From an uncultured Gammaproteobacteria bacterium (GTDB lineage Bacteria > Patescibacteriota > Microgenomatia > UBA1406 > HO2-37-13b), in the NCBI GenBank assembly GCA_964422025.1, contig CAYQYZ010000005.1, forward strand, positions 2,743 through 66,742: a DNA stretch of 64,000 nucleotides, read 5' to 3'. The notes beneath the pieces were generated by a model, which made no database searches, was not told the origin of the DNA, and saw nothing but the letters and a program-made list of their open reading frames with translations. Made by a program: the position numbers and the translations under genes. This document shows positions 2 to 58,370 of this stretch, one piece after another (position 1 is the stretch's first letter; each line of letters opens with the position of its first letter).

Positions 2-2734
2 TTGGCTTTCATTGGCTTGGTAAATTACCGTTTTGGAACCTATTTAACCGGCTGGGATAATTTGCAAACTGAACTTGCTCCTGGATTAGCGGTAAAGAGA
101 GCTGTTTTTGCCGTGTGGCAGGAATATCAGAGCTTTGGGCTCGTAGGAGGTATGGCACATGCGAGTGACTTATTGAGAGCGATTGGCGTGTGGGCATTAT
201 CATTTATAATGCCACAGAGCCTAATTCGATATGTGGTTCATATAGGAATGCTGGCTGTTGGAGCACTTGGTATATTTAAGCTATTGAGTCAAACAGAGAG
301 CGACACGAGTCATCCTGAGCCCTTCGATTACTCTCAGGGTAAACTCCGCGAAGGATCTCCGCTACCTTTCCTCGGATCACTCTTTTACATCCTTAACTTC
401 GCCACCATTCAACTCTTTTTCCTTCCCTTTGAGCCGTTCTCAATCTTTTTTGCTTCCCTGCCCTGGCTATTATGGATATTTTTACGCACTTTACTAAACC
501 ACAGTAAATTAACGCTTAAAGCCGCTACACCACTCTTTTTAATCAATCTATTAGCGACCCCAAGCTTTTATGTGCAAACGCTGTTTGTCGTATATATGCT
601 CGTATTGGGAGTGATTGGAGTTTGGAAGTTTCGAGCCCGAACGCTCTTTATTGCCTTCGCACTCATTATCACTGCCAACCTTTTCTGGATTCTTCCCCAA
701 GCGTACTTTCTAATAAATGGAGGATCCCAAACGGTCGCTAATGCCAAAATCAATCAGCTTGCCACGCAAGATGTTCAGATGCAAAACAAAGCTCGAGGAG
801 ATATTTCTTCATTCGCCACGTTTAAAAGCTTTTATTACGACTTAAATGGAACCGATCAAAAACCTCTGTTTGAACCCTGGCACAAACACCTAGAAAATCC
901 CGTCGTCCAGATTGCTTCATGGAGTATTTTTGCAATCATCCTGCTCGGAATAACTCGTAAGAGCGCGTATAGAGCTCCTTTTGTAGGAATATGGCTACTC
1001 TGTGCATTCGCACTACTCTCAAACACACCGGTAATTTCTCAGTTACACGACCTTATTACCCGAAATGGTTTGATCGCTCAAATTTTTCGAGCGCCATTTA
1101 CCAAATTCGCCGTGCCCTGGGCACTGATTTCAAGCTACTTTTTTATGAATGGAGTCTCTGTCATTCTGAACGCAGTGAAGAATCTAGGTGTTAAGCGCTC
1201 ACACCCAGATTCTTCGGCTTCGCCTCAGAATGACAAAGTGCGACAATCAGTAGGATCCATACTCTTAACAATAATCTCTTTGACGCTAATAGCCATCGTC
1301 TCTTTCCCCGTTTTCACCGGGAACTTATTCTCAGATCATGTACGCGTAAAAATTCCTACTGACTATTTCCAAACAATGGAGTATTTCGGTACGCTTCCTA
1401 AGGAGAATCGTATTGCCCTGTTGCCCCAAGATTCATTTTGGGGATGGTATCACTATTCCTGGGGATATTCCGGATCTGGGTTTTTATGGTATGGAATCGA
1501 ACAACCCATTGTGTCGCCCACGTTTGATGTGTGGAGTGCACATAGCGAGAGTTACTTTTGGGAAATGAAGCAGGCACTGGCTCTAGGAGAAGCCTCAAAG
1601 ATAACTGCCGTGCTAAAAAAATACAATATTCACTACGTGCTTGTTGATGAGAGCGTGCTTGCATCATCTACGCACCAGAAGGCATTTTTAGCCGACAAAA
1701 TTAAGGAAGCTTTAGCCAGTAATGAATCAGTACAACTTGAAAAGACATTTGGCACGATCTCGATCTACAAAGTGAAAAACGCCGCTCCCTTTGTAACCCG
1801 TATACAGAGCCTACCTGTGGTTGGACCCGACAGAGCGATTACGAACGATGATTCTGCGTATGCTTCTCTAGGAGATTACCGAAGTCCTCTCTTAGCAGAT
1901 AAGGAGAATTATGACTTCTACTTCCCGTTCTTAGATCTGTTTAGCCAAAAAAAAATATACCCACCCACGTGGAAACTTACTGAAAATCCTAATACATTTT
2001 CGTTGACAACGCAATTACCGTTTAATACAAATAAATACTCTCTGTTTTCGAGCGCCGACACATCCTTACTCCAGGGAGCTACGCAAGAGCGTTCATTGGC
2101 GGTTTCATTCCAAAAAAACTCATACGTAACGATCGATACCACCGGCGCCAAGCCTGAACAATGCCAAAAGCTCACCGTATGCGTTGCCTATTCCCTGCCC
2201 GACATTGCCCACGATCAAGCATATATTGTAAAAATTCATAATGAGAATATTGCTGGTCAGCGATTATTCTTTTACGCACAAAATATAACCACCGGAAGCA
2301 CGGTAATCGAAGACCGTTTGAGTGCGGATGTGCAGTACTTTATTCTGCCTTCAGGTAATCATTTTAGCAAAGGATATACCTTCGGTTTCCAGAATGACTC
2401 CCATGTGGGTCTTGAAAGCGAAAACGCCCTGATAAGCATACGCGTATACCATTTGCCGCTTGAACAACTAAAGGCTCTGTATTTTGCTCCTGCAGGCAAA
2501 GACGGCACAAGTACATTTGTATATAACCAGGCATACGATAGTGGCTGGAAAGCTTACCTAAATGGGCAGGAATTGGAAAATCACGTGAAAGTGAATAACT
2601 GGGCCAACGGATGGGTTATTCCGTCAGGCACTAAAGGAAATGTTCGAGTGTTTTTCTGGCCACAATTATTGGAATATGTTGGATTTGCAGCTATTGCCGT
2701 CATCGGAGTTAGTATAATAATAAAGAAAATATGA
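2..2734 (+). CDS. Large polytopic membrane protein with GT-C-like glycosyltransferase architecture (5' end outside window)
   Basis: ORF is open to the left window edge. Many hydrophobic helices in the N-terminal half, then a large soluble domain. Stop overlaps the def start (ATGA). Family assignment is by architecture only. Carries two in-frame family-1 repeat copies. Confidence 0.6.
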   Translation: MAFIGLVNYRFGTYLTGWDNLQTELAPGLAVKRAVFAVWQEYQSFGLVGGMAHASDLLRAIGVWALSFIMPQSLIRYVVHIGMLAVGALGIFKLLSQTESDTSHPEPFDYSQGKLREGSPLPFLGSLFYILNFATIQLFFLPFEPFSIFFASLPWLLWIFLRTLLNHSKLTLKAATPLFLINLLATPSFYVQTLFVVYMLVLGVIGVWKFRARTLFIAFALIITANLFWILPQAYFLINGGSQTVANAKINQLATQDVQMQNKARGDISSFATFKSFYYDLNGTDQKPLFEPWHKHLENPVVQIASWSIFAIILLGITRKSAYRAPFVGIWLLCAFALLSNTPVISQLHDLITRNGLIAQIFRAPFTKFAVPWALISSYFFMNGVSVILNAVKNLGVKRSHPDSSASPQNDKVRQSVGSILLTIISLTLIAIVSFPVFTGNLFSDHVRVKIPTDYFQTMEYFGTLPKENRIALLPQDSFWGWYHYSWGYSGSGFLWYGIEQPIVSPTFDVWSAHSESYFWEMKQALALGEASKITAVLKKYNIHYVLVDESVLASSTHQKAFLADKIKEALASNESVQLEKTFGTISIYKVKNAAPFVTRIQSLPVVGPDRAITNDDSAYASLGDYRSPLLADKENYDFYFPFLDLFSQKKIYPPTWKLTENPNTFSLTTQLPFNTNKYSLFSSADTSLLQGATQERSLAVSFQKNSYVTIDTTGAKPEQCQKLTVCVAYSLPDIAHDQAYIVKIHNENIAGQRLFFYAQNITTGSTVIEDRLSADVQYFILPSGNHFSKGYTFGFQNDSHVGLESENALISIRVYHLPLEQLKALYFAPAGKDGTSTFVYNQAYDSGWKAYLNGQELENHVKVNNWANGWVIPSGTKGNVRVFFWPQLLEYVGFAAIAVIGVSIIIKKI
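309..360. repeat. Family-1 palindromic repeat, composite variant, in frame inside a CDS
   Basis: gtcatcctgagcccttcg...ctcagggtaaac...cgcgaaggatctcc. Contains CCTGAG/CTCAGG and CCTTCG/CGAAGG inverted pairs. Translated as SHPEPFDYSQGKLREGSP. Confidence 0.6.
1160..1234. repeat. Family-1 palindromic repeat, head-to-head pair, in frame inside a CDS (75 bp = 25 codons)
   Basis: gtcattctgaacgcagtgaagaatct (1160-1185) and its inverted partner agattcttcggcttcgcctcagaatgac (1207-1234). The left half differs by 1 nt from the intergenic copy at 14355-14384. Confidence 0.85.
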
Positions 2735-3271: not shown

Positions 3272-3323
3272 TTTGTCAACCTCCGAGGTTGTACATGCCT
3301 ATTCAACCTGGTAGGTTGTTTTT
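3272..3323. repeat. Family-3 hairpin repeat (CAACCT-nnn-AGGTTG units); the last unit plus a T-run is the likely def terminator
   Basis: caacctccgaggttg and caacctggtaggttg hairpins, the latter followed by ttttt (3304-3323). The same block recurs at 50272-50350. Confidence 0.7.
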
Positions 3324-5657: not shown

Positions 5658-5667
5658 AGGTATATAT

Positions 5668-6285: not shown

Positions 6286-6323
6286 AGTTTGATTATGAAA
6301 AATTTTGCCTTAAATGTCAATGC

Positions 6324-13399: not shown

Positions 13400-13440
13400 G
13401 TCATTCTGAATCTCGCAGAGAGAGATGAAGAATCTCCGTC
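13400..13440. repeat. Family-1 palindromic repeat (intergenic)
   Basis: gtcattctgaatctcgcagagagagatgaagaatctccgtc. Confidence 0.8.
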
Positions 13441-14327: not shown

Positions 14328-14354
14328 TCTCTCAAGTCATTCAGATCTACCTTT

Positions 14355-14384
14355 GTCATTCTGAACGCAGCGAAGAATCTCCGT
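14355..14384. repeat. Family-1 palindromic repeat (intergenic, between convergent genes)
   Basis: gtcattctgaacgcagcgaagaatctccgt. Confidence 0.85.
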
Positions 14385-19943: not shown

Positions 19944-19971
19944 GGAGAACCTTCGACAAGCTCAGGGTGAC
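19944..19971. repeat. Family-1 repeat, divergent variant (reverse orientation)
   Basis: ggagaaccttcgacaagctcagggtgac. Confidence 0.55.
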
Positions 19972-20036: not shown

Positions 20037-20120
20037 ACGGCGCGAGATATCTGTTTGGAGACGAGTTGAAGCGTGAAGCAACTCTTCACTCGAGTCGACA
20101 AACACGATATCGAGCGGAGT
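20037..20120. repeat. Family-2 MITE-like element, 84 bp, identical to 52557-52640
   Basis: acggcgcgagatatctg...gatatcgagcggagt. The ends form an imperfect 15-bp inverted repeat (11/15). The interior folds as a long imperfect hairpin (CGAGTTGAAG / CTTCACTCG). Confidence 0.85.
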
Positions 20121-20144
20121 TATCAAATATATCCATTTTCCCAC

Positions 20145-20174
20145 TTGACATTGTTTGCAATACTTTTCTACAAT
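20145..20174 (+). promoter_or_regulatory. Promoter; the predicted TSS is at or next to the ATG at 20183
   Basis: TTGACA, 18 nt spacer, TACAAT, 8 nt, ATG. Confidence 0.55.
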
Positions 20175-20182
20175 CAATTAAT

Positions 20183-20779
20183 ATGACAAATCTATCAAGC
20201 ACGATCAAACAAGACCTTGCCGAGTTCAACAAACTCGACCAAAACCGAAAAATGGCCGTAATTGCCATTATTTTCGGCCTTTTCATTATTAGTATTATTG
20301 TCGGAGCAAACGTAACCAAAAAATCCGACACCGATACACAAACAGCCACTCCAACAACCGGTGCGCTTGAAAATGCAAAACCATCAACAACCATTGCCCT
20401 ATCCCCTGCTAAGCAGACTATTAAAGTAGGAGAGGCAACAAAAATTGACGTCATGCTTTCTAAACTACCCGTAACTGCTGCTGATGTAATATTGACTTAC
20501 GACGCAAAACAGGTTACCGTTTCAGCCCTTACGAATGGAACCGTGTTCCCCCGAGTAATTGGCATGAAGAATGAAACCGGAAAAATTACCTACAATGGCT
20601 CACTTTCTGAAGAAAGCCCAACCGATCGAAAAGAAGGGGTCATTTTCAGCTTCACCGTGACACCAAAAGCGGGTGCCAAATCAGTCGTAATTGACTTTGA
20701 TCATACCAAAACGCTTACTGCGATCAACGGCGAAAACACGCTGGGTAGCACAGTCGGAGGAATTTACACCATACAATGA
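20183..20779 (+). CDS. Membrane-anchored cohesin-like domain protein
   Basis: TM helix, then VGEATKIDVMLSKLPVTAADVILTYDAKQVTV...GVIFSFTVTPKAGA. Start moved from 20066, because the upstream part of the ORF is repeat and promoter sequence. Confidence 0.55.
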   Translation: MTNLSSTIKQDLAEFNKLDQNRKMAVIAIIFGLFIISIIVGANVTKKSDTDTQTATPTTGALENAKPSTTIALSPAKQTIKVGEATKIDVMLSKLPVTAADVILTYDAKQVTVSALTNGTVFPRVIGMKNETGKITYNGSLSEESPTDRKEGVIFSFTVTPKAGAKSVVIDFDHTKTLTAINGENTLGSTVGGIYTIQ

Positions 20780-23700
20780 ATATATCGCAATTAAAAAATT
20801 GGAAACAACGCGGAGAAGTTGCCACCCTATTTACGGTGGCGGCTTTGGTGTTAATGGCCGCAGGCACTTTGTTGGGTTCAGCGCGCGTTGTTCAAGATAA
20901 TGTTTTAAAACTGGGAAGCTTTGCGTACGACAATACATATCGCGCACATTTCTATAAAGGCCCAACATTCGAAGAAAAAGATCGTATCCCAGGCCAACCA
21001 AATTCAGGATACACATTAATTCGAGGATCACTTTGTTTTACTGGTACTAGGATTCCTTCACAATTACAACAATTCTGGGTTCACACTCCTCAAGACCCAA
21101 ATCGAGGATATCCACAAAAGGCATGTGACAATACTAATACCGATACCAAAGATGATTGTATTGTACATGAAGGAAGAACCGTTAAATACATCGCTCCACA
21201 AACTTCACGTCCGTATTGTGATAGCCCCGATGTAGGAAAAGCAAACTGGAGAGCCTGGGATTTTACGTTAAAATTACAAGCACCATATTCTAAGGATTTG
21301 TGTTCAGGGTTATTTGTAAGCTCAAGCTCAAGTTTTGTTTCTCGTGATCCAATTGAAATCGACATGAATGCATGGCATCGTTATTTGGGTCAACATGGTG
21401 TTGATTGTGGACCAACCCCAACCGTGCCAGTAAATCCAACAAATACACCAATCCCAACTGACCAACCACCAGTTACAGAGCAGCCTACTATTAAGGTACC
21501 AACCGCTAGACCAACCATTGACAATCGTATTACTGCAGGACCTACCGTAAGAATTAGTATTCGACCTACCGATAAGCCACGATGCCCTGATCCTAAAAGA
21601 CCATGTCCTTCTATCACTCCTGTTGGTGAATGTAGAACAGACATAACGTGCTCATCGAAATCAAAACCATGTCCGTCCGGATATTCATGCCTATTCTTAA
21701 ATGAAGATCTAAATGCCGATAATCCAGGCACATGTGTGAGTAACGACCGAAAATGTAATCCAACAACAACGCCAACGCCTCCACGAGCTACAATTTCCCC
21801 GCAACCTTCATGTAATGATTGTGTTTCACAAGGAAAAGCATACCGATGTACCGGAGATGTAGCATTCCCAGGCCAATCACCTGCCGTTTACTGTAGTAAT
21901 ACCGACACTGGTCGTCCGGCTTCATGCCAACTCTGTACACCAGTTTCAGTTACCAGCAGTCCTGAACAAGCAAAGATTCGCGGAGATATTATTGTAAATT
22001 CATGTAAAAAACCAGATAGCGTTGATACGAGAATTTGTAGTAAAACAAATCCATCCACCTGTTTGCGCGGAAATACCCCAGTAACATTCATCGGTCAAGA
22101 CCCTACAAATCCTAATAAATGGGTATATTCCTATGAACATACTGTCGCTCCTATTGATGGCACCACTTCATACGAGCCTATTGAGCGAGGTCTTTTATAC
22201 GCCGAGATGCAAGCATATGCACATTACAGCGTAAACGGACTTATTACTGACTATGGCATCGTGACATATCCACCATTCCAAGCCAATCAGAAACCAAAGG
22301 TTGGTTATACAACAATTCCAGCAAGTGATAGTGAGTCTATAATTAACTATGAAGTTCTACAGAATAGTATTGTATGTCCACCGGTGAGTCCAAGTGTTAA
22401 ACCGTCGGAAGCACCAACAGCTATTCCTTCACCGAGCATGTGTAAATTTAGCGCAACACTTGAAGTACGTGATGAAGCAACTAACTTACCAATCCCTGTT
22501 TCACAAATGGGCGATGTAAATAAATGGGGAGTAGCAAATGACAAGCAAACAAACAAACCAAACACCCTATTTAGCATTTCAGGTGATGTAGTAAACGGCG
22601 AACGCGTATCGCGTTACAATCTTAAAACTGACACTTTGACGTTTAGACCACAAGATTCAAAAGCCCTATATCAGGAAGGAGATAAGGCACAAGCAGGATT
22701 GTATATTGATACAAATAAATGGAAAATTACCCGAAAAATTCCATGTAACGGTAATGGGTGTCCTATTCCTAACGAACCGGGTAACAATCCAATACTTGAC
22801 CAATATGGATCAACAACAACGGGGTTCAAGATGAACTGTGATCAGTCAAGCAGTTATGGTTGGTACGTACAAAAACTTCCTCCAACCAGCCCAGAAAATC
22901 CTGGACAACCAGGTCAACCCGCTGGCCAATGTGTATTGCGTGACCCAGTGAATGCAGTCAAGTGTTCACCTAAGAATGTAAAAGCCGTTCGAAAGTCAAC
23001 AAGCACCGTTGCAGTTAGCTGGACTGCACCAGATGCATCATGCAACTTTACCCCTGGCTCAAATGGTGATTTCTATCGAATTGATTTGATCGACATGACT
23101 GAAAATCCACGCTCAGTAATTACCACCTGTGATAAAATCACCAATACCAGTAAAGAATGCACTCTTTCCCCAACCTATCATCCAAATAGCTCAGGTCAAA
23201 AAGGAACATTCCAGGCTGGTCATGACTACGTTGCAAGTGTATATGCATTCAAAGAAATTCCTGGCTCTGTCGATATGTGTGTAAGCAATAATGGAAATGC
23301 TTCTTTTGACCGACCTGCAAAAGACAACGGATCAGGCGATGCTCCTGAACCAACAACCGCTCCAATCGGTGGAAGTGATAGTAATGGTAACGAATTATTA
23401 ACTAGACAACTTGATTGGATGGTTAATAATGTAGGCGTGTGTTGGGCTGGATGGAGCCATGGTAAGTGTAGCTTGGCATACAATGGAACAAATAAATGGG
23501 CGCAAAGCATAACTGATGGTCGTTTCAAATGTTTTGCTCCATATGGAGCAGATAAAGCTGTGCCCGGTCAGGAAACGGTGGTAATTGGACTCATGGATGG
23601 AGTGGAACAAATTAACGGTGTTCAAACAAAACGAGTTGACTGTATAGGAAATAAAGAGAACGCGTGCATTGCTGCAAAAGATACAAAAGTTTCTCAATGT

Positions 23701-25485
23701 GAATCGGATCTTTCAGTCGCTAACACAACAAATGGGCAACCTATTAACCTAAAGCCAAATGAATGTTGGTCGTTGGATGCGAATTTAGGAGTCACAAAAT
23801 TACCATCGTGTCCCGTAGATCCAAAAGATGTTTCAAATCAACCGCCGCGACGAGTTCCTGGCGAACCACAACCTACTGCTAAACCCGGAGAAACACAACC
23901 CCAACCAGGGCCTGGTCAAACTACTCCAAAAGGTCCAGGGTCAGGCATAATAACCACTATCAGTGATAATGAAAGTGCTTTGAATGCAGACGCAACTATT
24001 GCTGCCTCCTATCGCACAACAAGCAGTGCTGAAAATATCCCCGCCACTATTGTTCCAAACGAAGATGGCTCGGTCACATATTCGGTTCCAAATTTCGATT
24101 CTGAACAGGATGAATACTTTATCGATATATATATAAACTACGCACTACCTGAAACTCCTTTAAAAACTCAGCGCGCCACTGCAAAACTACACATAAATAA
24201 AAACGAATACAACAATACCGGTGTTTGGGACACGGAAATCATATTGGATCCAGCTAACGATCCTGAATTTGATTCCACAATACCTACCCCTCAACCAGGA
24301 GATACATGGATGAAACCTACTGATGACAAGAAATATGTGCGTAGTTGTGTGAGTAATGAGAGACTATGTATCAGCGAAGGCGGAACTGTTTTTAGAGGCA
24401 CAACGAATCTAACATGCGCAAACCGTAATGCAGTAAAATGTTTATTCCCAATAATAGCTCCACGAGATTCAACACCAAGGACTCCTGCTCCAAGAACACC
24501 AGCACCGGATGCTAAACCATGGCTAGGACTCACTAATGATAAGCAAAGGTACAGAAGATGCTTGGCAGATGTCGGTGTTTGTAAGTCAAGGGCTGGTAAA
24601 GTGATTACAAGCACTGGTTGGAAATGTGAAACAGAATCCTTGACAAAATGCGAAATTCCAATCAGCAAAAGTACTATCATTATTGACGGAATAACAAATT
24701 TCAAAGGTGACGATAGACGCGATGCAATAGTTGTTCTTGATATCAGAACACTTGCCTCGGGTAGGGTTATTGATACAGATTCTTATGATGAAGATGATTT
24801 CCGCGGTTCATTGAATATGGCAAGCTTCACAAACACAATTCCTGTCAAAGATCATTTAGATTATCAAGTCGACTTTAAAGTAGTGAACAAGAGAACACGA
24901 GAAAAAGTTACTGGGTATGAATTTAAAAGCGTAGGAGGCCAAATGACGTGCAATGGGAAAACATGTACATCAAGTAAGGGCGGAGGGTACATAAAAGTAG
25001 AAATAAATAAAACTGAGGCTGATAGCTCATCAGTTCTTTCTTCCATATCTTTGAATAATGCTAGTGACCAAGCTATCACTTCCTTTTCTATAGCCTCATG
25101 CGATTCGTCCAATAAATGTACGTCAAACACAGTTCCCATAGGACTCGCCGCTGGAGCAAATACAAAATTCAAGCCAACATTCTCAGTACCTAGTACCACT
25201 CGACGATTGAGCTGTGTGGTTACGTTTGGCAATGGAACACGCAAACAATGCACTCCACAACTGGTCACCGGAAGTAATGGATTGCAATTTACTATTACTG
25301 CACAAGCAAATAATACGGTTAGTACAACCGTTCTCTCCCCACTTAAAACTGCCGACACTAATCGTGACTGTAAAGTGACAAGTGCCGATGCAGTAGGTTT
25401 GAGAGATCTGGACGGTAATGGAAGTGTAAATGCGGCCGACACGTCACTTTTCTTCAGCTACATTGGCCAGAATGCGTGCAACTGA
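20776..25485 (+). CDS. Giant Cys-rich surface protein (1569 aa): signal anchor, PT linkers, YGW module, FN3-like domain, C-terminal dockerin
   Basis: ATGA overlap with the upstream gene. YGW module at 22441-22875. FN3-like VAVSWTAP...HDYVASVYAF. C-terminal DTNRDCKVTSADAVGL / DLDGNGSVNAADTSLFFSYIG. Confidence 0.75.
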   Translation: MNISQLKNWKQRGEVATLFTVAALVLMAAGTLLGSARVVQDNVLKLGSFAYDNTYRAHFYKGPTFEEKDRIPGQPNSGYTLIRGSLCFTGTRIPSQLQQFWVHTPQDPNRGYPQKACDNTNTDTKDDCIVHEGRTVKYIAPQTSRPYCDSPDVGKANWRAWDFTLKLQAPYSKDLCSGLFVSSSSSFVSRDPIEIDMNAWHRYLGQHGVDCGPTPTVPVNPTNTPIPTDQPPVTEQPTIKVPTARPTIDNRITAGPTVRISIRPTDKPRCPDPKRPCPSITPVGECRTDITCSSKSKPCPSGYSCLFLNEDLNADNPGTCVSNDRKCNPTTTPTPPRATISPQPSCNDCVSQGKAYRCTGDVAFPGQSPAVYCSNTDTGRPASCQLCTPVSVTSSPEQAKIRGDIIVNSCKKPDSVDTRICSKTNPSTCLRGNTPVTFIGQDPTNPNKWVYSYEHTVAPIDGTTSYEPIERGLLYAEMQAYAHYSVNGLITDYGIVTYPPFQANQKPKVGYTTIPASDSESIINYEVLQNSIVCPPVSPSVKPSEAPTAIPSPSMCKFSATLEVRDEATNLPIPVSQMGDVNKWGVANDKQTNKPNTLFSISGDVVNGERVSRYNLKTDTLTFRPQDSKALYQEGDKAQAGLYIDTNKWKITRKIPCNGNGCPIPNEPGNNPILDQYGSTTTGFKMNCDQSSSYGWYVQKLPPTSPENPGQPGQPAGQCVLRDPVNAVKCSPKNVKAVRKSTSTVAVSWTAPDASCNFTPGSNGDFYRIDLIDMTENPRSVITTCDKITNTSKECTLSPTYHPNSSGQKGTFQAGHDYVASVYAFKEIPGSVDMCVSNNGNASFDRPAKDNGSGDAPEPTTAPIGGSDSNGNELLTRQLDWMVNNVGVCWAGWSHGKCSLAYNGTNKWAQSITDGRFKCFAPYGADKAVPGQETVVIGLMDGVEQINGVQTKRVDCIGNKENACIAAKDTKVSQCESDLSVANTTNGQPINLKPNECWSLDANLGVTKLPSCPVDPKDVSNQPPRRVPGEPQPTAKPGETQPQPGPGQTTPKGPGSGIITTISDNESALNADATIAASYRTTSSAENIPATIVPNEDGSVTYSVPNFDSEQDEYFIDIYINYALPETPLKTQRATAKLHINKNEYNNTGVWDTEIILDPANDPEFDSTIPTPQPGDTWMKPTDDKKYVRSCVSNERLCISEGGTVFRGTTNLTCANRNAVKCLFPIIAPRDSTPRTPAPRTPAPDAKPWLGLTNDKQRYRRCLADVGVCKSRAGKVITSTGWKCETESLTKCEIPISKSTIIIDGITNFKGDDRRDAIVVLDIRTLASGRVIDTDSYDEDDFRGSLNMASFTNTIPVKDHLDYQVDFKVVNKRTREKVTGYEFKSVGGQMTCNGKTCTSSKGGGYIKVEINKTEADSSSVLSSISLNNASDQAITSFSIASCDSSNKCTSNTVPIGLAAGANTKFKPTFSVPSTTRRLSCVVTFGNGTRKQCTPQLVTGSNGLQFTITAQANNTVSTTVLSPLKTADTNRDCKVTSADAVGLRDLDGNGSVNAADTSLFFSYIGQNACN

Positions 25486-25511
25486 GATTCTTCGCTCACG
25501 CTCAGAATGAC
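25484..25511. repeat. Family-1 repeat (reverse orientation), overlapping the stop codon of the 1569-aa gene
   Basis: gagattcttcgctcacgctcagaatgac. Confidence 0.8.
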
Positions 25512-29693: not shown

Positions 29694-29774
29694 GTCATTT
29701 TGAATAGCACTGTCATTCTGAGCTCCGCCAGCTGGCGGAAGCGAAGAATCTCCGTATATACTCCGCTCGAGATC
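29694..29774. repeat. Composite repeat: family-1 with duplicated head and inner palindrome, joined to a family-2 terminal fragment
   Basis: gtcattttgaatagcactgtcattctgagc-TCCGCCAGCTGGCGGA-agcgaagaatctccgt, then actccgctcgagatc (13/15 to the reverse complement of the family-2 right end). Confidence 0.75.
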
Positions 29775-30983: not shown

Positions 30984-31010
30984 GTCATCCTGAACTTGTT
31001 TCAGGATCTC
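30984..31010. repeat. Family-1 repeat, CTGAA/TTCAG variant
   Basis: gtcatcctgaacttgtttcaggatctc (8-bp stem ATCCTGAA/TTCAGGAT). Confidence 0.7.
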
Positions 31011-31035: not shown

Positions 31036-31305
31036 ATGGATTCCATAAAAACAGTGCTTACAAAATACAATCCAAAGGTTGATAAATACGTTTCTCGGGA
31101 ATTTCAATCGTACGGCGTTCATTTAGCAGCAAAGTTGGAAGATGAAAAGCACAAAAGCTTATACATAAAAATGTCAAAAACAGTCCCCCGCCCTATTCTA
31201 GAAAAAGCCTTGAGCTTTGTAATCGATTCCGGTGCCCGAAAAAAGGGTGCGCTGTTTATGTGGAAGCTGAAAGAACTGGGGGCAGTTGGGAAAAAATCTG
31301 TGTAA
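31036..31305 (+). CDS. Hypothetical small protein (89 aa)
   Basis: TATAAT (31024-31029) lies 6 nt upstream of the ATG. The 3' end overlaps the convergent pth gene by 50 nt. Confidence 0.45.
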   Translation: MDSIKTVLTKYNPKVDKYVSREFQSYGVHLAAKLEDEKHKSLYIKMSKTVPRPILEKALSFVIDSGARKKGALFMWKLKELGAVGKKSV

Positions 31306-31774
31306 ACACCTTTTCTATTGTGACAAACTCTTCGGACGTGAAATTTTGCAGCGTATATTCCACACCCGCTACCCTGTTTTCCGAATCTCGGTTTTCAATT
31401 CCAATCCGAACCCGGGTAAAATCCTTTGTGCCCAGTTCGCGCTCTATAGAAAGTATTCCATTGTGCCCATACGGACCTTTTCCGTGTTGAATCTTGAATT
31501 CACCGAGCTTTATATCTAAATCATCGTGCACAATTATAAGGTCGTTTGAATCGACTTTATAAAAGTTCATTGCCTGACGAACTTCTATACCTGAATCGTT
31601 CATAAAACATTTGAGTTTTAAGGCTTTCCACCCAGACTTGTCATTCAGAGCAACATTGTCATGCTGAACTTGTTTCAGCATCTCCTCCGCCCTATCCACC
31701 AACATAACTCCCACATTATGACGAGTCTTTTCATATTTTTCTCCGGGATTTCCCAGGCCAATCAGTAGCTTCAT
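31256..31774 (-). CDS. pth: Peptidyl-tRNA hydrolase
   Basis: LIGLGNPG..Y..TRHNVG, FMNDSG, HDDLD and GHNG motifs. Start set at MKLLIGLGNPG, because the longer ORF would run into tRNA-Leu. Confidence 0.9.
   Translation of the reverse strand: MKLLIGLGNPGEKYEKTRHNVGVMLVDRAEEMLKQVQHDNVALNDKSGWKALKLKCFMNDSGIEVRQAMNFYKVDSNDLIIVHDDLDIKLGEFKIQHGKGPYGHNGILSIERELGTKDFTRVRIGIENRDSENRVAGVEYTLQNFTSEEFVTIEKVFTQIFSQLPPVLSAST
31640..31685. repeat. Family-1-like sequence (duplicated head plus CTGAA/TTCAG hairpin) embedded in the pth coding sequence
   Basis: gtcattcagagcaacattgtcatgctgaacttgtttcagcatctcc. Same layout as 29694-29725 and same hairpin as 30984-31010. Confidence 0.6.
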
Positions 31775-31799
31775 GTGTACAGTATAATATATAAACACA

Positions 31800-31883
31800 G
31801 CCAGGGTGGCGGAATTGGCATACGCGCACGGTTCAGAACCGTGTCTCAGCAATGAGGTGAGGGTTCAAGTCCCTCCCCTGGCA
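31800..31883 (+). tRNA. tRNA-Leu(CAG)
   Basis: Acceptor GCCAGGG/CCCTGGC. Anticodon arm CACGG-TTCAGAA-CCGTG. Long variable arm. T-arm GAGGG-TTCAAGT-CCCTC. TATAAT at 31783-31788. Confidence 0.9.
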
Positions 31884-50414: not shown

Positions 50415-51151
50415 AATCTTTCTTTCCCTACCAACCACATGAACTTCACCAACCGCAGTTGTCGCCAAATTCTTCTGGGCTGGCGCACAAGCCGGAATAA
50501 CCACTCAAATCCGGCCTTCTGTATCCACTTGGGTGCACGGGCAATATTTCCCGATAAAAAGTCAAAAGCTCCCCCAACCCCCATTACTACCATTCCAGCA
50601 AATAGCTTGCTATGACGTTCTATCCATAATTCTTGGGCTGGGGAGCCGTAGGCCACGAATACCATATGTGGCTTTGTAGCAGCAACTATAGAAGCAATCT
50701 CAGCTTCTTCCACATCCGTTGGTCGTGCGATATTAGCAATTCCTGTTGTGCCTGTAAATTCAATGCCTGAAAAAGCTTCCTTTTGGCACTCAATTACCTT
50801 GTCTGCTACTTTATCACCTCCACCGATTAGTAGTACTCGTAAGCGTCTGTTGTGAGCCTCTTTGAGCAAGTCCGACATCAAATCAACCCCACTGTACCGG
50901 TCACCAACGGGAATTGAGCACAGTTTTGCAGCAACGATAACTCCTATACCATCAAGAATACGCATTTGGGCCTCTGTGGCGACCTTTTTAAACTCCCAAT
51001 TAGTCGTTGTGAGCACAAAATTCTCGGGATTTAACGATACTACATGGAAAAATCTTTTGGTTTCAAAAATGTTTTTAATAATTTTCTCTCGGATAGCGCT
51101 TTTTGACTCGGTTGGAATTGGTATCCCGAGGAGATGATTTTTAGATTGCAT
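50405..51151 (-). CDS. WecB/TagA/CpsF-family glycosyltransferase
   Basis: GVDLM..L...A..........LLGG......A, VFVAYGSPAQELWI and EWLFRL..QPRR.WR patterns. Confidence 0.8.
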   Translation of the reverse strand: MQSKNHLLGIPIPTESKSAIREKIIKNIFETKRFFHVVSLNPENFVLTTTNWEFKKVATEAQMRILDGIGVIVAAKLCSIPVGDRYSGVDLMSDLLKEAHNRRLRVLLIGGGDKVADKVIECQKEAFSGIEFTGTTGIANIARPTDVEEAEIASIVAATKPHMVFVAYGSPAQELWIERHSKLFAGMVVMGVGGAFDFLSGNIARAPKWIQKAGFEWLFRLVRQPRRIWRQLRLVKFMWLVGKERLSF

Positions 51152-52647: not shown

Positions 52648-52675
52648 GGAGATTCTTCGCTGCGCTCAGAATGAC
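52648..52675. repeat. Family-1 repeat (reverse orientation)
   Basis: ggagattcttcgctgcgctcagaatgac. Confidence 0.85.
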
Positions 52676-56178: not shown

Positions 56179-57345
56179 CTATATCGTCTTATTAACAATA
56201 ATTATTTTGGACACCGCTGCTTCTAGATCTTCTTTCGTATGACTTGCAGATGGAATCAGCCGAATTCGTGCAGTTCCCTGTGGAACCATAGGAAATTTAA
56301 TTGCACTTGCAAAGATTCCTTCATTAAAAAGCTCGGACGCGAATTTTACTGCACGATCTTCGTCACCCAACATGATTGGAGTTATGGGTGATTCAGATTT
56401 ACCTGTGTCAAAGCCGGCATCTTTAAGAGCAGATTTTAGATAATTGGCATTTTCCCACAGTTTCTTTACTAGCTCATCGGATTCACTCAGGATTTTTACT
56501 CCTTCAAGAACGGCAGCTGTATCAGGAATCGTTAGCGCATTCGAAAAAAGAAACTGACGTGCCTTTTGTCGGTATAAGCTAATAAGAGATTTATTTCCTG
56601 CAACGAATCCTCCCATTACTGAAAATGCTTTAGAAAGGGTGCCGACTTCAATATCTACACGTCCGTGGAGTTTGAAATGATCCACAATTCCCCGCCCGCC
56701 GTTACCAAGAACTCCTTCTCCATGAGCATCGTCGACCATGACGATTGCATCAAATTTCTCTGCGAGCTCGACTATTTGTGGAAGCGGTGCCAAATCACCA
56801 TCCATTGAAAACACGCCATCAGTAACAATGAGGATTTTTTGATTAGCACCTAGATCCTTCACTTCGTTCAGGATGACTTCGAGATGTTTCATGTCACCAT
56901 GCTTGTAAATAAACTTATTTTTAACGCCCGACAATTTTACCGCGTCAATAATTGACGCATGATTGAGTTCATCGGAAATTATGACATCGTCTTTTGCCAT
57001 AATCGTTTGAATGGCAGCACAATTTGCCATGTACCCACCGGTGAAAATGACTGCATCTTCGGTTCCTTTAAAGTCGGCAAGAGCTCGCTCGAGTTGTACG
57101 TGGAGAGTATGGGTACCAGCAAGCGTTCGGTAACCAGTAGCGATTCCATATTGATCTATAGCCGCTTTTGCAGCAGCAGTCACACGCGGGTTTACTCCTA
57201 GTCCAAGGTAATGGCTGGAGCATAAATTGAGGAGTTTTTTTCCATCAACGGTTAAATATGCACCCTGGCTGGAATCAATAATCCTGGGCGCAGGAGCAGC
57301 AGCATTAAAATTTTCCTCTAAGAATGTTGCTAGTTTGTTGTTCAT
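56179..57345 (-). CDS. kbl: 2-amino-3-ketobutyrate CoA ligase (glycine C-acetyltransferase)
   Basis: Alpha-oxoamine synthase patterns (NHASIID, DDAHGEG, TLSKAF). ATGA start/stop overlap with tdh. Start set at MNNKLATF. Confidence 0.85.
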   Translation of the reverse strand: MNNKLATFLEENFNAAAPAPRIIDSSQGAYLTVDGKKLLNLCSSHYLGLGVNPRVTAAAKAAIDQYGIATGYRTLAGTHTLHVQLERALADFKGTEDAVIFTGGYMANCAAIQTIMAKDDVIISDELNHASIIDAVKLSGVKNKFIYKHGDMKHLEVILNEVKDLGANQKILIVTDGVFSMDGDLAPLPQIVELAEKFDAIVMVDDAHGEGVLGNGGRGIVDHFKLHGRVDIEVGTLSKAFSVMGGFVAGNKSLISLYRQKARQFLFSNALTIPDTAAVLEGVKILSESDELVKKLWENANYLKSALKDAGFDTGKSESPITPIMLGDEDRAVKFASELFNEGIFASAIKFPMVPQGTARIRLIPSASHTKEDLEAAVSKIIIVNKTI

Positions 57346-58370
57346 ACTTCCAAAAGTACCTTTCCACATTCTCCGCTCATCATCACCTTCATCGCTTCTT
57401 CAAAATCAGCCAACTTAAACCGATGTGTAATAATTTTTGTTAAGTCAATTTTACCGGACGTGAGTAAATCAGATGTCTGATACCACGTTTCCCAAATTCG
57501 ACGGCCGAATACAGAATCAATCGAAAGTTCTTTATTGATCAAATATTTACCCCAATTTAACGTTATATCAGCTTTGGGAATACCAAACGCAATTATCTTT
57601 CCGGCAATACGAGCAGCATCGAACGCAATTTGGATACCTGCCTGCGAGCCACTCATTTCAGCAACGACGTCGAACGTGTCGTTTTCTGCATCAGGAAGTT
57701 TTTCAAGAACCCGATCAAATCCAACGTTTTTTGCTAGCTCTCTACGGTATTCTCCACGATTAATTCCCACAACCTCGCTTGCTCCATATGCCTTTGCAAC
57801 CATTCCCGCACATAACCCGGTTGGTCCAAGCCCAATTACCAATACTTTTTTACCCGCAACGTTTCCCTTAGTAATTACATGTACCGCATTTCCTAGTGGT
57901 TCGGCTACGCTCATGGCTTCAACAGGAATAGAAGGGTCATTTTTCCAGGTAGTTCGAATAGGAATCGTTGCATATTCTGCAAATCCCCCATTTCGTCCAA
58001 TACCAAAAAGTTCCATTTTTTCACAGACGTGAAGATTCCCTACTTTACATTGATAACAGTTTCCGCAATAAATATGTGTTTCTGAGGAAACAATGTCGCC
58101 AATACTCAGACCCTGTGATGTTTTTGTAGAAACAGAGTCGCCAATTTGAATAATTTTCCCAACTACTTCATGTCCGATGACAATAGGAGGAGTAATGTGC
58201 CCTGCTGCCCAGGGAGTCCAATTATAAATACCAATGTCAGTTCCACAAATCGAAGCATTTAAGACCTTAATAAGTACTTCATCATTTTTGGGAATCGGCA
58301 CGGGAATTTGTTTAATAACTACACCTGCTTCGGGCTTTTCTTTCACTACCGCTAACATAGTTTTTTGCAT
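57342..58370 (-). CDS. tdh: L-threonine 3-dehydrogenase (Zn-dependent MDR family)
   Basis: CGTD, GHEVVG and CGNCYQCKVGNLHVC structural-zinc motifs. Translationally coupled to kbl. Confidence 0.85.
   Translation of the reverse strand: MQKTMLAVVKEKPEAGVVIKQIPVPIPKNDEVLIKVLNASICGTDIGIYNWTPWAAGHITPPIVIGHEVVGKIIQIGDSVSTKTSQGLSIGDIVSSETHIYCGNCYQCKVGNLHVCEKMELFGIGRNGGFAEYATIPIRTTWKNDPSIPVEAMSVAEPLGNAVHVITKGNVAGKKVLVIGLGPTGLCAGMVAKAYGASEVVGINRGEYRRELAKNVGFDRVLEKLPDAENDTFDVVAEMSGSQAGIQIAFDAARIAGKIIAFGIPKADITLNWGKYLINKELSIDSVFGRRIWETWYQTSDLLTSGKIDLTKIITHRFKLADFEEAMKVMMSGECGKVLLEV

What the first reader, a model, noticed from the sequence alone, without database searches (positions are those of the whole stretch)
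1160..1234. Intergenic palindromic repeat inserted in frame within a membrane-protein gene (analogous to Rickettsia RPEs)
The family-1 motif gtcattctga...gaagaatct(ccgt) occurs at least 11 times in the window. Most copies are intergenic: 13400, 14355, 19944, 25484, 29694, 30984, 50385 and 52648.

Inside the first gene, a head-to-head pair of this motif occupies exactly 75 bp (25 codons). It reads through as VILNAVKNLGVKRSHPDSSASPQNDK, a hydrophilic loop between hydrophobic segments. Its left half differs from the intergenic copy at 14355 by a single base, which argues for a recent insertion rather than convergent coding sequence. A second, composite copy sits in frame at 309-360 of the same gene (SHPEPFDYSQGKLREGSP).

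In-frame palindromic elements that add peptide segments are established for Rickettsia palindromic elements. I do not know of a description for this motif or lineage.
Basis: partly seen in the sequence, partly recalled or inferred. Interest (0 to 1): 0.7.

Follow-up and report, generated by a model that had tools for sequence, protein, structure and literature searches.

The report
Ssn-type hairpin repeats inserted inside genes
A 75-bp pair of hairpin repeats really is inserted in frame in a membrane-protein gene of a candidate-phyla-radiation bacterium, but the repeat belongs to an already described pan-bacterial family (CGTC-tagged REPs / Ssn-related motifs, which also includes some Rickettsia palindromic elements), so this is a new example rather than a new kind of thing.

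Summary
Window 1160-1234 is a 75-bp head-to-head pair of a hairpin repeat with 13 copies in the window. It reads through in frame in an intact 910-aa membrane-protein ORF. A second, composite copy sits in frame at 309-360.

Ortholog alignment shows both segments are lineage-specific additions to hypervariable loops. Distant homologs lack them. Close relatives carry the same unit, a different one or a nested one at the same two sites, always in frame.

The repeat is neither lineage-specific nor undescribed. The same 26-mer occurs in nearly every bacterial phylum. It has the (C/T)GTC-AT...AT-C signature of the "CGTC-tagged REPs" (Di Nocera 2013), a class that includes Neisseria dRS3 and Rickettsia RPE-4/-6. 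It also matches the "Ssn-related motifs" (Chenal 2025).

I found independently that these units bracket about 93-aa GIY-YIG genes in inverted orientation. Those genes are 42-46% identical to the NTS-flanked gonococcal SsnA ortholog.

The near-identity to the copy at 14355 reflects family-wide conservation, not recency, because the insert is shared by orthologs at 75-92% identity.

What is new: the host lineage (Microgenomates), a high intragenic fraction, a G·A-mismatch/GNA-loop variant that the published SRM pattern misses, and signs of nesting in the apical loop.

The parts
2..2734 (+). Host gene. Intact ORF of 910 aa shown, with the N-terminus cut by the window edge (= P0001, 927 aa). It is a large polytopic membrane protein of Microgenomates with weak similarity to GT-C glycosyltransferases.
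   Evidence: ORF. 703 homologs were found and the query is 100% identical to P0001. Only 1 of 22 family members hits PF11847, at E=2e-4. Hydrophobic segments were mapped. AlphaFold2 model: pLDDT 73.5, helical N-terminal half.
1160..1234 (+). Head-to-head dimer of the hairpin repeat, 75 bp, in frame. It encodes VILNAVKNLGVKRSHPDSSASPQND.
   Evidence: As ssDNA it folds to -21.6 kcal/mol (top strand) and -23.9 kcal/mol (bottom strand), z = -6.5 and -7.4. It is absent from P0008 and distant homologs, present in P0002, P0004 and P0006, and replaced by another dimer in P0003 and P0005.
1160..1185 (+). Left unit. Layout: GTC tag, 5-bp stem ATTCT/AGAAT, tandem G·A, apical AC-GCA-GT (a GNA loop), then CT tail.
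   Evidence: CM hit of 44.5 bits, E=3e-8. One mismatch to 14355-14380. Modelled as an extension of helix 382-414 of P0001.
1186..1206 (+). Spacer AGGTGTTAAGCGCTCACACCC, itself palindromic at its ends (GGTGT/ACACC).
   Evidence: The same spacer type occurs in a dimer at loop 1 of the ortholog in L124. Its start is also found after the 56877 unit.
1207..1234 (-). Right unit in inverted orientation, with a 3-bp apical stem GGC-GAA-GCC. The 2 extra bases shift the frame and so avoid the unit's TGA.
   Evidence: CM hit of 34 bits, E=1e-5. Frame analysis is read directly from the sequence.
309..360 (+). Composite unit in frame (SHPEPFDYSQGKLREGSP). It is an ATCCT-type unit with a net 24-nt (8-codon) addition after position 12, in its apical loop. 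The added sequence is a reversed ACCCT-type unit.
   Evidence: The closest relative, L121 (94% nt identity), has the simple unit GTCATCCTGAGCAGCGCGAAGGATCT at the same site. The insert resembles the unit at 19946-19971. It coincides with low-pLDDT coil 120-134 of P0001.
13400..13435 (+). Intergenic unit with a longer apical stem.
   Evidence: E=7e-5.
14355..14380 (+). Intergenic unit between convergent genes. A truncated left half lies at 14336-14347.
19946..19971 (-). Intergenic unit of the GTCAC/ACCCT type.
   Evidence: E=2e-5.
25485..25511 (-). Unit abutting the stop codon of ORF 20776..25485.
29712..29751 (+). Intergenic unit with a long apical hairpin. A truncated left half lies at 29694-29705.
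30984..31009 (+). Intergenic unit of the fully Watson-Crick variant (8-bp stem, 5-nt loop).
   Evidence: (z=-3.6).
31640..31683 (+). A truncated half plus a full unit (ATGCT type). They lie antisense and in frame inside the peptidyl-tRNA hydrolase gene, where they encode EEMLKQVQHDNVALNDK.
50387..50414 (-). Unit whose TGA supplies the stop codon of the WecG/TagA-family gene 50405..51151(-).
52650..52675 (-). Intergenic unit. This is the best CM hit in the window.
   Evidence: 47.9 bits.
56852..56877 (-). Unit in frame (VILNEVKDL) inside the KBL/AONS-like aminotransferase gene. It shares 32 of 37 nt with the 1160 unit, counting the start of the spacer.
   Evidence: E=7e-7.

Best explanation
The 75-bp segment is a head-to-head dimer of a short hairpin repeat of the CGTC/TGTC-tagged REP class, also called Ssn-related motifs (SRM).

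Each unit has five parts:
- an unpaired (T/C)GTC tag;
- a 5-bp stem that begins with AT;
- two sheared G·A pairs in a 5'-YGAR-3' context;
- a 2-3-bp apical stem closed by a GNA or GNRA loop;
- a C-T tail.

In other bacteria such hairpins, as single-stranded DNA, are bound by a small single-domain GIY-YIG nuclease (Ssn). Ssn cuts a few nucleotides upstream of the tag, and its gene is typically bracketed by inverted units. Dimers with a short spacer are the gene-less, REPIN/MITE-like form.

Copies land anywhere. Inside genes, only those that keep the frame, avoid the unit's TGA (4 of 6 frames are open) and fall in tolerant loops survive. In this membrane protein two loops have repeatedly accepted, exchanged and nested such units. 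In this genome they add 25 aa and 17 aa that are probably neutral linker or loop sequence.

Shown here: the identity and structure of the unit, its pan-phylum distribution, its association with Ssn-like genes, and the lineage-specific in-frame insertions.

Taken from the literature: ssDNA binding and cleavage by Ssn.

Inferred: that an Ssn of this lineage acts on these units, and how units spread.
For: Structure:
- At two positions left free by the search pattern, 144/150 and 143/150 cross-phylum copies are Watson-Crick paired. The loop N takes all four bases.
- The apical pairs, which I did not select on, covary (GC 52, AU 11).

Distribution:
They came from Nitrospirota, Chloroflexota, Acidobacteriota, Bacteroidota, Clostridia, Planctomycetota, Omnitrophota, Proteobacteria, Saccharibacteria and others, often as head-to-head dimers.

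Ssn link:
- In L122, a relative of this genome, a 93-aa GIY-YIG gene is bracketed by arrays of units. The same arrangement is seen in L002, L012, L081 and L104.
- Among 80 metagenomic loci with homologs, 54/75 have a forward unit upstream and 52/71 a reverse unit downstream. The background is 0.04 per equal-sized stretch.
- These proteins hit PF01541. They are 46% and 42% identical to the NTS-flanked N. gonorrhoeae GIY-YIG.
- Chenal 2025 reports the same architecture and similar percentages (71% with at least one flank, 42% with both), and shows ssDNA-specific cleavage.
- Di Nocera 2013 describes the TGTC/CGTC tag, AT-starting stems, head-to-head dimers and intragenic units.

Insertion:
- The ortholog alignment and DNA comparison show presence/absence and replacement at both loops, always in frame.
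- The inserts fall between hydrophobic segments and in low-pLDDT coils.
Against: - No ssn/GIY-YIG gene lies in the 64-kb window. Whether this genome encodes one is unknown.
- The published SRM search pattern does not match these units and finds none in the window. Only 1 of 80 GIY-YIG loci carries a pattern-conforming SRM. Membership therefore rests on shared signature and protein homology, not on the published definition.
- Single units are not predicted to be unusually stable by nearest-neighbour parameters, with z between +1.0 and -1.0. The claimed extra stability of GNA loops and sheared G·A pairs is from my own knowledge.
- No target-site duplication or other insertion footprint was found, and the mechanism of spread is not known for any SRM.
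- For the copies in the aminotransferase and pth genes there is no net gain in length, so 'insertion' there is less clear-cut.
Confidence: 0.8

Rival explanations
1. The segments are native coding sequence that merely resembles the intergenic repeat, by chance or by convergence on a useful peptide.
For: In the aminotransferase, VILNEVKDLGA occupies the place of a native helix (LEEKLKEA..) with almost no change in length. The left unit of the dimer is modelled as part of a helix.
Against: 0 of 100 shuffles give any match. The 1160 and 56877 copies share 32 of 37 nt. Distant homologs lack the segments, and different orthologs carry different units at the same site. A 24-nt nested unit is present or absent between genomes that are 94% identical.
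Confidence: 0.03
2. The ORF is a pseudogene or an assembly artefact interrupted by repeat DNA.
For: Repeats can cause misassembly in metagenome bins. No expression data are available.
Against: The ORF is open for 910 codons and aligns over 97-100% of its length with hundreds of homologs. The same in-frame insert is present in independently assembled contigs from ENA and NCBI. All indels at the two loops are multiples of 3.
Confidence: 0.03
3. The units are REP/REPIN elements mobilised by a RAYT (HUH Y1 transposase), or classical MITEs mobilised by a DDE transposase. They would then have nothing to do with a GIY-YIG nuclease.
For: The architecture is REPIN-like: inverted pairs forming a long hairpin, and a nuclease gene bracketed by inverted units. 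Chenal 2025 themselves note the parallel with IS200/IS605 and REP/BIME.
Against: The tag is (T/C)GTC, not GTAG. Di Nocera 2013 found no transposase associated with the CGTC class. No transposase or Y1 domain occurs in about 50 ORFs of the window. No terminal duplications flank the dimer. The gene actually bracketed by the units is a GIY-YIG.
Confidence: 0.07
4. The units function mainly as RNA elements (terminators, mRNA stabilisers or protein-binding hairpins), and their abundance reflects selection for regulation rather than selfish spread or Ssn targeting.
For: Several copies lie directly after stop codons or between convergent genes (14355, 25485, 29712, 50387). Di Nocera 2013 argues that many REPs are transcribed. 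Tandem G·A pairs and GNRA-like loops are also stable in RNA.
Against: No T-run follows the hairpins. Copies occur in both orientations relative to genes, and inside coding regions. The near-identical 26-mer across phyla, together with the tight link to a nuclease gene that acts on ssDNA but not RNA, points to a DNA-level partner. Nothing excludes a secondary RNA role.
Confidence: 0.07

Closest known systems
Ssn-related motifs (SRM), including the Neisseria NTS, with the SsnA GIY-YIG ssDNA nuclease (Chenal et al., Nat Commun 2025, PMC11893778)
   Same: Both have a (C/T)GTCAT tag, a hairpin whose stem starts with AT, and an ATC tail. Compare NTS CGTCATTCCCGCGMAVGCGGGAATCYRG with TGTCATTCTGAGCGNAGCGAAGAATCTC here. 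Both show inverted units bracketing a single-domain GIY-YIG gene of about 93 aa. The share of such genes flanked by units is similar. The associated proteins are 42-46% identical to the gonococcal NTS-flanked protein. Both are widely distributed across phyla.
   Different: In place of the G+C-rich perfect stem, the stem interior carries tandem G·A mismatches and a GNA triloop. The published degenerate SRM pattern does not match it. In N. meningitidis only 2% of NTS are intragenic, whereas here 5 of 13 full units lie inside CDS. No ssn gene is in the window. Cleavage was not tested for this variant. The paper does not mention Patescibacteria.
CGTC-tagged REP superfamily (Di Nocera, De Gregorio, Rocco, BMC Genomics 2013, PMC3733652), including Neisseria dRS3 and R. 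conorii RPE-4/RPE-6
   Same: Both have an unpaired CGTC tag that is often TGTC, and stems with A and T in first and second position. Both have a short unpaired tail and predominantly head-to-head dimers. Intragenic single units and dimers encoding 20-30 aa occur in both. The 30984 and 31658 variants (8-bp stem, 5-nt loop) fit the description closely.
   Different: Most units here have a 5-bp stem, G·A mismatches and a 3-nt loop, rather than an 8-9-bp stem with a 4-5-nt loop. The tail is CTC(C) rather than CCA. The 2013 survey covered 5 phyla and did not include CPR. It found no associated enzyme.
Rickettsia palindromic elements (RPE; Ogata et al. 2000/2002; Claverie & Ogata 2003), recalled from memory
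   Same: Palindromic repeats are inserted in frame into many unrelated protein genes. They add hydrophilic peptide segments at tolerant sites. Intergenic copies of the same families exist.
   Different: RPE-1 is 100-150 bp and unrelated in sequence. Only RPE-4 and RPE-6 are assigned to the CGTC class. The host here is a free-living or epibiotic CPR bacterium, not an obligate intracellular alphaproteobacterium. I could not align RPE consensus sequences because none were available to the tools.
REP/REPIN-RAYT systems (Nunvar 2010; Bertels & Rainey 2011)
   Same: Short hairpin repeats form inverted doublets that fold into long hairpins. A small nuclease gene, single-copy in Neisseria, is bracketed by the repeats. 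The two probably co-evolve.
   Different: The tag differs (GTAG in REPs) and so does the enzyme fold (HUH Y1 versus GIY-YIG). REP sequences are lineage-specific, whereas this 26-mer is nearly identical across phyla.
Intragenic enterobacterial and Neisseria MITEs (ERIC/RU elements, Correia elements; Delihas 2007-2011)
   Same: These are small non-autonomous repeats that are occasionally found inside ORFs and contribute peptide segments.
   Different: Those elements are 100-170 bp with terminal inverted repeats and target-site duplications. No such duplications or long terminal repeats are seen here.

Membership tests
Ssn-related motif (SRM) / NTS class | Directional hairpin repeat with a conserved unpaired 5' (C/T)GTC tag, a stem beginning with AT, and an ATC-type 3' end | tested here: met
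   All 13 window units carry GTC, a stem starting A[T/C] and a C(T) tail. 8 of 13 have TGTC. By inspection they line up with NTS and NTSvar as quoted.
Ssn-related motif (SRM) / NTS class | Matches the published degenerate search sequence HGTCWYN(0-2)YYVSBRHN(0-5)WNVSBRGN(0-2)RNCYNB | tested here: not met
   There are 0 matches in the window (shuffles give 0.1). The explicit units at 1160, 14355 and 30984 and the cross-phylum consensus all fail, while NTS passes.
Ssn-related motif (SRM) / NTS class | Units flank genes for single-domain GIY-YIG proteins of about 94 aa, in inverted orientation | tested here: met
   Seen in L122, L002, L012, L081 and L104. In 80 metagenome loci, 54/75 have a forward unit upstream and 52/71 a reverse unit downstream, against a background of 0.04. 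This was not observable in the window itself, which has no such gene.
Ssn-related motif (SRM) / NTS class | The associated protein belongs to the Ssn family (homolog of Neisseria SsnA; CDD cd10448) | tested here: met
   PF01541 hit at E=3e-13 to 5e-17. 46% identity, E=4e-16, to the only hit in the N. gonorrhoeae record, which lies among canonical NTS repeats. 42% identity for the L122 protein. The cd10448 assignment itself could not be run.
Ssn-related motif (SRM) / NTS class | Bound and cleaved as ssDNA, one strand only, by the cognate Ssn | not testable with these tools
   This needs a biochemical assay. Strand asymmetry (G·A pairs and the GNA loop on the tagged strand only) is consistent with it, but that is inference.
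CGTC-tagged REP superfamily (Di Nocera 2013) | Unpaired terminal CGTC (or TGTC/CCTC) followed by a stem with A,T in positions 1-2 | tested here: met
   compared with the description.
CGTC-tagged REP superfamily (Di Nocera 2013) | Stem of 8-9 bp, loop of 4-5 nt, 3-nt tail (consensus CCA) | tested here: inconclusive
   The units at 30984 and 31658 have an 8-bp stem and a 5-nt loop. The majority have 5 bp, then 2 G·A pairs, then 2-3 bp, with a 3-nt loop. The tail is CTC or CTCC.
CGTC-tagged REP superfamily (Di Nocera 2013) | Predominantly head-to-head dimers; intragenic units occur | tested here: met
   Head-to-head dimers are common in cross-phylum loci. There is one such dimer in the window (1160-1234). 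Intragenic units are shown.
Rickettsia palindromic elements | Sequence membership in one of the RPE families | not tested
The only link is the literature statement that RPE-4 and RPE-6 are CGTC elements.
Rickettsia palindromic elements | In-frame insertion in functional genes, adding a peptide at a tolerant site | tested here: met
REP/REPIN-RAYT | GTAG tag and an associated Y1 (HUH) transposase gene | tested here: not met
   The tag is GTC. No Y1_Tnp or other transposase domain occurs in the window ORFs. The bracketed gene is a GIY-YIG.

The most novel reading that the evidence does not exclude
The G·A-mismatch/GNA-loop unit would be a distinct, pan-bacterial SRM class with its own Ssn subfamily, missed by the published SRM definition. 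On this reading its preferred integration point is the single-stranded apical loop of a pre-existing unit, after position 12 (GTCATYCTGAGC|).

That would explain three observations: the nested 24-nt unit at 309-360, the replacement of one dimer by another at the same codon in orthologs, and the truncated left halves found 18-23 nt upstream of full units in many phyla.

In Microgenomates this self-targeted turnover would act as a recurrent generator of length and sequence diversity in loops of envelope and housekeeping proteins. Localised recombination tracts might accompany it, since identity to L122 is 94-96% around the dimer against 80% gene-wide.
Probability: 0.3. Interest if true: 0.6.

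Novelty: new member of a known kind. Interest (0 to 1): 0.4.

Why it matters
The finding shows that Ssn-type hairpin repeats are abundant and actively turning over in a candidate-phyla-radiation lineage. Density reaches up to about 0.9 units per kb in relatives. Insertions into coding sequence are tolerated there far more often than in Neisseria, as they are in Rickettsia.

It links three literatures that are usually kept apart: RPEs, CGTC-REPs/dRS3, and Ssn/SRM.

It also flags a practical gap. The published SRM pattern misses a variant that is found, almost letter for letter, in nearly every phylum and on many viral contigs. These units generate many spurious or extended ORFs and peptide segments (VILSEAKDL, HPERSEGS, LRSE*, FAQNDK types) in MAG annotations.

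For Ssn biotechnology, this variant and its nucleases would be a ready source of new ssDNA specificities.

For the protein itself the inserts are most likely neutral loop additions.

Tried and rejected
- Rfam at gathering thresholds found only 4 tRNAs.
- Literature searches by exact DNA or peptide words and by GIY-YIG/MITE/UPF0213 terms found nothing relevant. The relevant papers surfaced only through 'palindromic element' and 'CGTC/dRS3'.
- I first suspected the UPF0213/YhbQ family. PDB hits to BH0048 and EF2693 are weak (E=2e-7), NCBIfam has no model, and Ssn is the better match.
- I considered hammerhead, K-turn and C/D-box readings of CUGA...GAAG. I dropped them because the spacing does not fit the core motifs and because the partner enzyme acts on DNA.
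- I looked for target-site duplications at the dimer borders using the 94%-identical relative. None were found, and the junction codons are in fact the most divergent positions.
- P0001 could not be located in the contig index, so the rest of this genome could not be searched for ssn.
- Thermodynamic folding of single units was uninformative.
- Ogata 2002 is not held, and the supplements of the Ssn paper are not held.
- The covariance counts on A3 are partly circular for the basal stem, because I selected on pairing. I therefore rely (apical pairs) for unbiased covariation.


Full report
**What is in the sequence**

Window 1160-1234 reads GTCATTCTGAACGCAGTGAAGAATCT, then AGGTGTTAAGCGCTCACACCC, then AGATTCTTCGGCTTCGCCTCAGAATGAC. 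The two outer parts are the same unit in opposite orientation. The whole is 75 bp and lies in frame in ORF 2..2734 (+), which is open for 910 codons and runs off the left edge of the window.

The left unit differs by one base from 14355-14380. A 26-mer search with up to 3 mismatches finds 4 copies, against none in 100 dinucleotide shuffles. A looser scan and a covariance model find the following:
- 12 units with E<0.05;
- the composite unit at 309-360;
- three truncated left halves at 14336, 29694 and 31640.

19944 is a GTCAC-type variant on the minus strand.

**Anatomy of the unit**

Comparing copies gives this layout: an unpaired GTC (usually TGTC), a 5-bp stem A-Y-N-N-T, GA, an apical mini-hairpin, GA, the complementary arm, then C-T.

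At two positions that my cross-phylum search pattern left free, 144/150 and 143/150 copies are Watson-Crick paired (Fisher p of about 1e-34 and 1e-24). The central loop base takes all four values. In an alignment of 68 diverse units the two apical pairs, which I did not select on, also covary (GC 52, AU 11, CG 2). The basal-stem counts in that alignment are circular and I do not use them.

The two GA dinucleotides face each other in a 5'-YGAR-3' context, and the apical part is typically GCGNAGC. From my own knowledge these are the sheared tandem G·A motif and the very stable GNA-loop DNA mini-hairpin. They exist only on the tagged strand.

Nearest-neighbour folding does not capture this, and single units score no better than shuffles. 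The 75-nt dimer does fold into a long hairpin on either strand, at -21.6 and -23.9 kcal/mol with z of -6.5 and -7.4.

**Is it an insertion?**

The protein has 703 detectable homologs, mostly from Microgenomates/Roizmanbacteria-type CPR bacteria. Only one of 22 aligned members weakly hits the GT-C AftD domain, so I call it a GT-C-like polytopic membrane protein with low confidence.

In the alignment the 25-aa segment is distributed as follows:
- present in P0001, P0002 (92% identity), P0004 (77%) and P0006 (75%);
- replaced by a different repeat-derived segment in P0003 and P0005;
- absent from P0008 (56%) and from the more distant homologs.

The 309-360 segment lies in a second hypervariable loop. 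There, relatives carry other repeat-derived peptides (HSERSEES, IPQNDK, CHCEKRSDEAI), and the same loops have been hit independently in homologs of only 37-44% identity.

DNA of four syntenic relatives (L121-L124) makes this concrete:
- **L121**, 94% identical over 12.7 kb, has the dimer with 3 substitutions. At 309 it has the simple unit GTCATCCTGAGCAGCGCGAAGGATCT, so the window carries a net extra 24 nt (8 codons) in the apical loop. That addition is itself a reversed ACCCT-type unit, like the one at 19946-19971.
- **L121** also has an in-frame net 36-nt (12-codon) addition containing a unit near window 620. The window lacks it.
- **L123** has the orthologous 309 unit with both arms changed (ATCCT/AGGAT to ACCCT/AGGGT). 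The two substitutions are synonymous and compensatory.
- **L124 and L122** show a 12-nt truncated left half of the old unit, followed by a complete new dimer.

All length differences at the two loops are multiples of three.

The inserts lie between hydrophobic segments. They coincide with two of the ten low-confidence stretches of an AlphaFold2 model, residues 120-134 and 415-428 in P0001 numbering. The peptide of the left unit is modelled as an extension of a helix.

The gene is therefore intact, and the segments are lineage-specific in-frame additions.

The 'recent insertion' inference does not hold. The dimer predates the split of genomes that are only about 77-80% identical at the nucleotide level across this gene.

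**The repeat is not lineage-specific**

The hits came from Nitrospirota, Chloroflexota, Acidobacteriota, Bacteroidota, Clostridia, Planctomycetota, Omnitrophota, Gemmatimonadota, Proteobacteria, Verrucomicrobiota, Fibrobacter, Saccharibacteria and Patescibacteria, including the isolate Mucilaginibacter sp. L196. Many are head-to-head dimers with 10-60-nt spacers. The same pattern also hits the limit of 120 loci in IMG/VR viral contigs.

**The associated gene**

In L122 a 93-aa GIY-YIG ORF lies between arrays of forward units upstream and reverse units downstream. Four of the 120 random genome loci encode a homolog. In three of them a pattern hit lies within about 30 nt of the ORF, and all five ORFs (these four plus L122) have units close by on both sides.

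I then fetched 80 metagenomic loci encoding homologs:
- With a strict definition, 57 of 71 have a correctly oriented unit within 150 nt on at least one side, and 30 of 71 have one on both sides.
- With a slightly broader definition, forward units lie upstream in 54/75 and reverse units downstream in 52/71. The wrong orientation gives 32/75 and 30/71. The background is 0.04 per equal-sized stretch more than 400 nt away.
- The apparent negatives mostly carry variant units such as GTCACCCTGA...GAAGGGTCT.

**Comparison with what is known**

Two papers describe this class.

Di Nocera et al. 2013 (PMC3733652) defined 'CGTC-tagged' REPs with these features:
- an unpaired CGTC tag, often TGTC;
- stems with A,T in the first two positions;
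- a short tail;
- mainly head-to-head dimers;
- presence in five phyla;
- intragenic single units and dimers encoding 20-30 aa;
- no associated transposase.

They equate their CGTC-1 with Neisseria dRS3, and CGTC-1 and CGTC-4 with R. conorii RPE-6 and RPE-4.

Chenal et al. 2025 (PMC11893778) showed the following:
- Neisseria NTS (CGTCATTCCCGCGMAVGCGGGAATCYRG) and related 'Ssn-related motifs' flank ssnA, a 94-aa single-domain GIY-YIG gene of CDD family cd10448.
- 71% of homologs have at least one motif nearby and 42% have motifs on both sides.
- SsnA binds the hairpin only as ssDNA, on one strand only, and cuts a few nt upstream.
- It modulates natural transformation.
- Rickettsia and Wolbachia are among the genomes richest in these motifs.
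- NTS are rarely intragenic in N. meningitidis (2%).

My units share the GTCAT...ATC signature. The bracketed proteins are 46% identical (tblastn E=4e-16) and 42% identical to the single GIY-YIG in a N. gonorrhoeae chromosome record, which sits among canonical NTS copies.

However, the published degenerate SRM pattern matches none of the window units, and only 1 of the 80 GIY-YIG loci has a conforming motif. Canonical NTS-like units co-occur with the G·A variant in some Nitrospirales and Dehalococcoidia genomes.

I therefore file the repeat as a member of the CGTC-REP/SRM kind, in a variant that the published pattern does not capture.

**How it most likely works**

Shown here: the units are structured, directional hairpins. 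They co-occur with and bracket Ssn-like genes. They are polymorphic between close relatives. Inside genes they persist only in frame.

Read directly from the sequence, the unit is open in 4 of 6 frames. Forward frame 2 and reverse frame 2 hit TGA. The right unit of the dimer avoids its TGA because its apical stem is 2 nt longer. The same TGA ends the WecG/TagA-family gene at 50405.

From the literature: Ssn recognises the tagged strand as ssDNA.

Inferred: an Ssn of this lineage acts on these units, and Ssn-dependent breaks or repair drive their spread and turnover.

No ssn gene is in the window, and no transposase is present either.

The peptide additions themselves are most simply neutral passengers in tolerant loops.

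**Further genic copies and turnover**

Three more observations extend the finding:
- The unit at 56852-56877(-) is in frame in a KBL/AONS-like aminotransferase. It shares 32 of 37 nt with the 1160 unit, including the start of the spacer. The same loop carries repeat-derived inserts of various lengths in other Microgenomates.
- A unit and a truncated half lie antisense and in frame in pth.
- In total 5 of 13 full units lie inside CDS.

Relatives are rich in units, with 37 CM hits in 87 kb.

Across all loci, truncated 12-nt left halves lie preferentially 18-23 nt upstream of full units. Together with the nested unit at 309 and the replacements in L122 and L124, this suggests integration into the apical loop after position 12. 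That is a hypothesis, not a result.

Identity between the window and L122 rises from 80% gene-wide to 94-96% across 1143-1270. This could reflect a recombination tract or nucleotide-level constraint.

**Verdict**

The element belongs to an already described class, and in-frame REP insertions are already documented. It is a new member in a new lineage, with some features worth a specialist's follow-up, so interest is moderate.

Noticed in passing
window 56852-56877 (-), gene 56179..57369 (-): A unit lies in frame (VILNEVKDLGA) in a KBL/8-amino-7-oxononanoate-synthase-like aminotransferase. It shares 32 of 37 nt with the 1160 unit including the spacer start, with almost no net length change against E. 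coli Kbl-like homologs. The same loop carries repeat-derived inserts of different lengths in other Microgenomates (P0125, P0132, P0137, P0170).
   Followed up: yes
window 31640-31683 (+), inside pth ORF 31256..31852 (-): A truncated left half plus a full ATGCT-type unit lie antisense and in frame in the peptidyl-tRNA hydrolase gene (EEMLKQVQHDNVALNDK). They sit in a region that is variable among CPR homologs, some of which also show repeat-like peptides.
   Followed up: partly
window 50387-50414 (-): The TGA inside the unit's GTCATTCTGA serves as the stop codon of the WecG/TagA-family glycosyltransferase gene 50405..51151 (-), whose last residues (..LSF*) are repeat-encoded. The unit at 25485-25511 likewise abuts the stop of ORF 20776..25485.
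   Followed up: partly
window 20037-20120 and 52557-52640: Two 100% identical copies of an 84-nt palindromic element (RNA fold -35.5 kcal/mol). Its ends, ACGGCGCGAGATATC and GATATCGAGCGGAGT, are imperfect inverted repeats. Related ends occur at 50238-50264, 50356-50382 and 29758-29790, each time next to a family-1 unit, giving BIME-like mosaics. No copy was found in L121-L124.
   Followed up: partly
window 3272-3319 and 50272-50346; L121 12433-12520: Tandem hairpin repeats CAACCTnnnnAGGTTG with a period of about 27 nt lie after the def gene. The copy number differs between the window (2) and its 94%-identical relative (3).
   Followed up: partly
window about 620-640 versus L121 9748-9800: The closest relative carries an in-frame net 36-nt (12-codon) addition in the gene-1 ortholog that the window lacks. 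It contains a reversed unit (GTCATCCCGAACTTGTTTCGGGATC). Other orthologs have a loop of similar length there, so the window may have lost it.
   Followed up: partly
L123 10353-10384 versus window 309-360: The orthologous intragenic unit shows a double change, ATCCT/AGGAT to ACCCT/AGGGT. It keeps the pairing, and both substitutions are synonymous (cat to cac, gga to ggg). It could reflect selection on the hairpin inside a CDS, or conversion from another copy.
   Followed up: no
window 1093-1290 versus L122: Nucleotide identity is 94-96% around the dimer and the following transmembrane segment, against 80% for the whole gene. It could be a recombination or co-conversion tract, or a nucleotide-level constraint.
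   Followed up: no
many loci, e.g. L050, L090, L102, L113, L189; window 14336, 29694, 31640: Arrays of truncated left halves (GTCATYCTGAGC plus 6-10 nt) lie directly upstream of full units in several phyla, with a start-to-start peak at 18-23 nt. No comparable pattern exists for right halves.
   Followed up: partly
L006, L025, L043, L086, L164: Canonical Neisseria-type NTS units (CGTCATTCCCGCGAAGGCGGGAATCCAG) occur in Nitrospirales and Dehalococcoidia genomes alongside the G·A-variant units.
   Followed up: no
Only one of them (L325) encodes an Ssn-like GIY-YIG. Phages or prophages may help spread the units, but host flanks in prophage calls were not excluded.
   Followed up: partly
L206 (Planktothrix agardhii plasmid p1, 18847-19131): An Ssn-like GIY-YIG gene (68% identical to the Saccharibacteria one) sits between an MmeI-type restriction-modification gene and DISARM drmA, that is, inside a defence island.
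   Followed up: no
window 4339-11737, 20066-29686, 37748-43975, 59299-63888: This CPR window encodes several cohesin/dockerin-domain proteins and a thermolysin-like peptidase carrying cohesin and dockerin domains. It also encodes a 2075-aa RHS-repeat protein, a 1529-aa protein with seven Laminin_G_3 domains, and very large ORFs without Pfam hits (1569 and 1374 aa). Three tandem paralogous genes at 33628-37782 share 300-nt repeats that are 92% identical.
   Followed up: no
L009, L018, L022, L073, L082, L099, L119 (Acidobacteriota): A second conserved motif, CAGGCTGCGGAAAAA, lies 12-16 nt upstream of the units in Acidobacteriota. This suggests a larger lineage-specific composite element.
   Followed up: no
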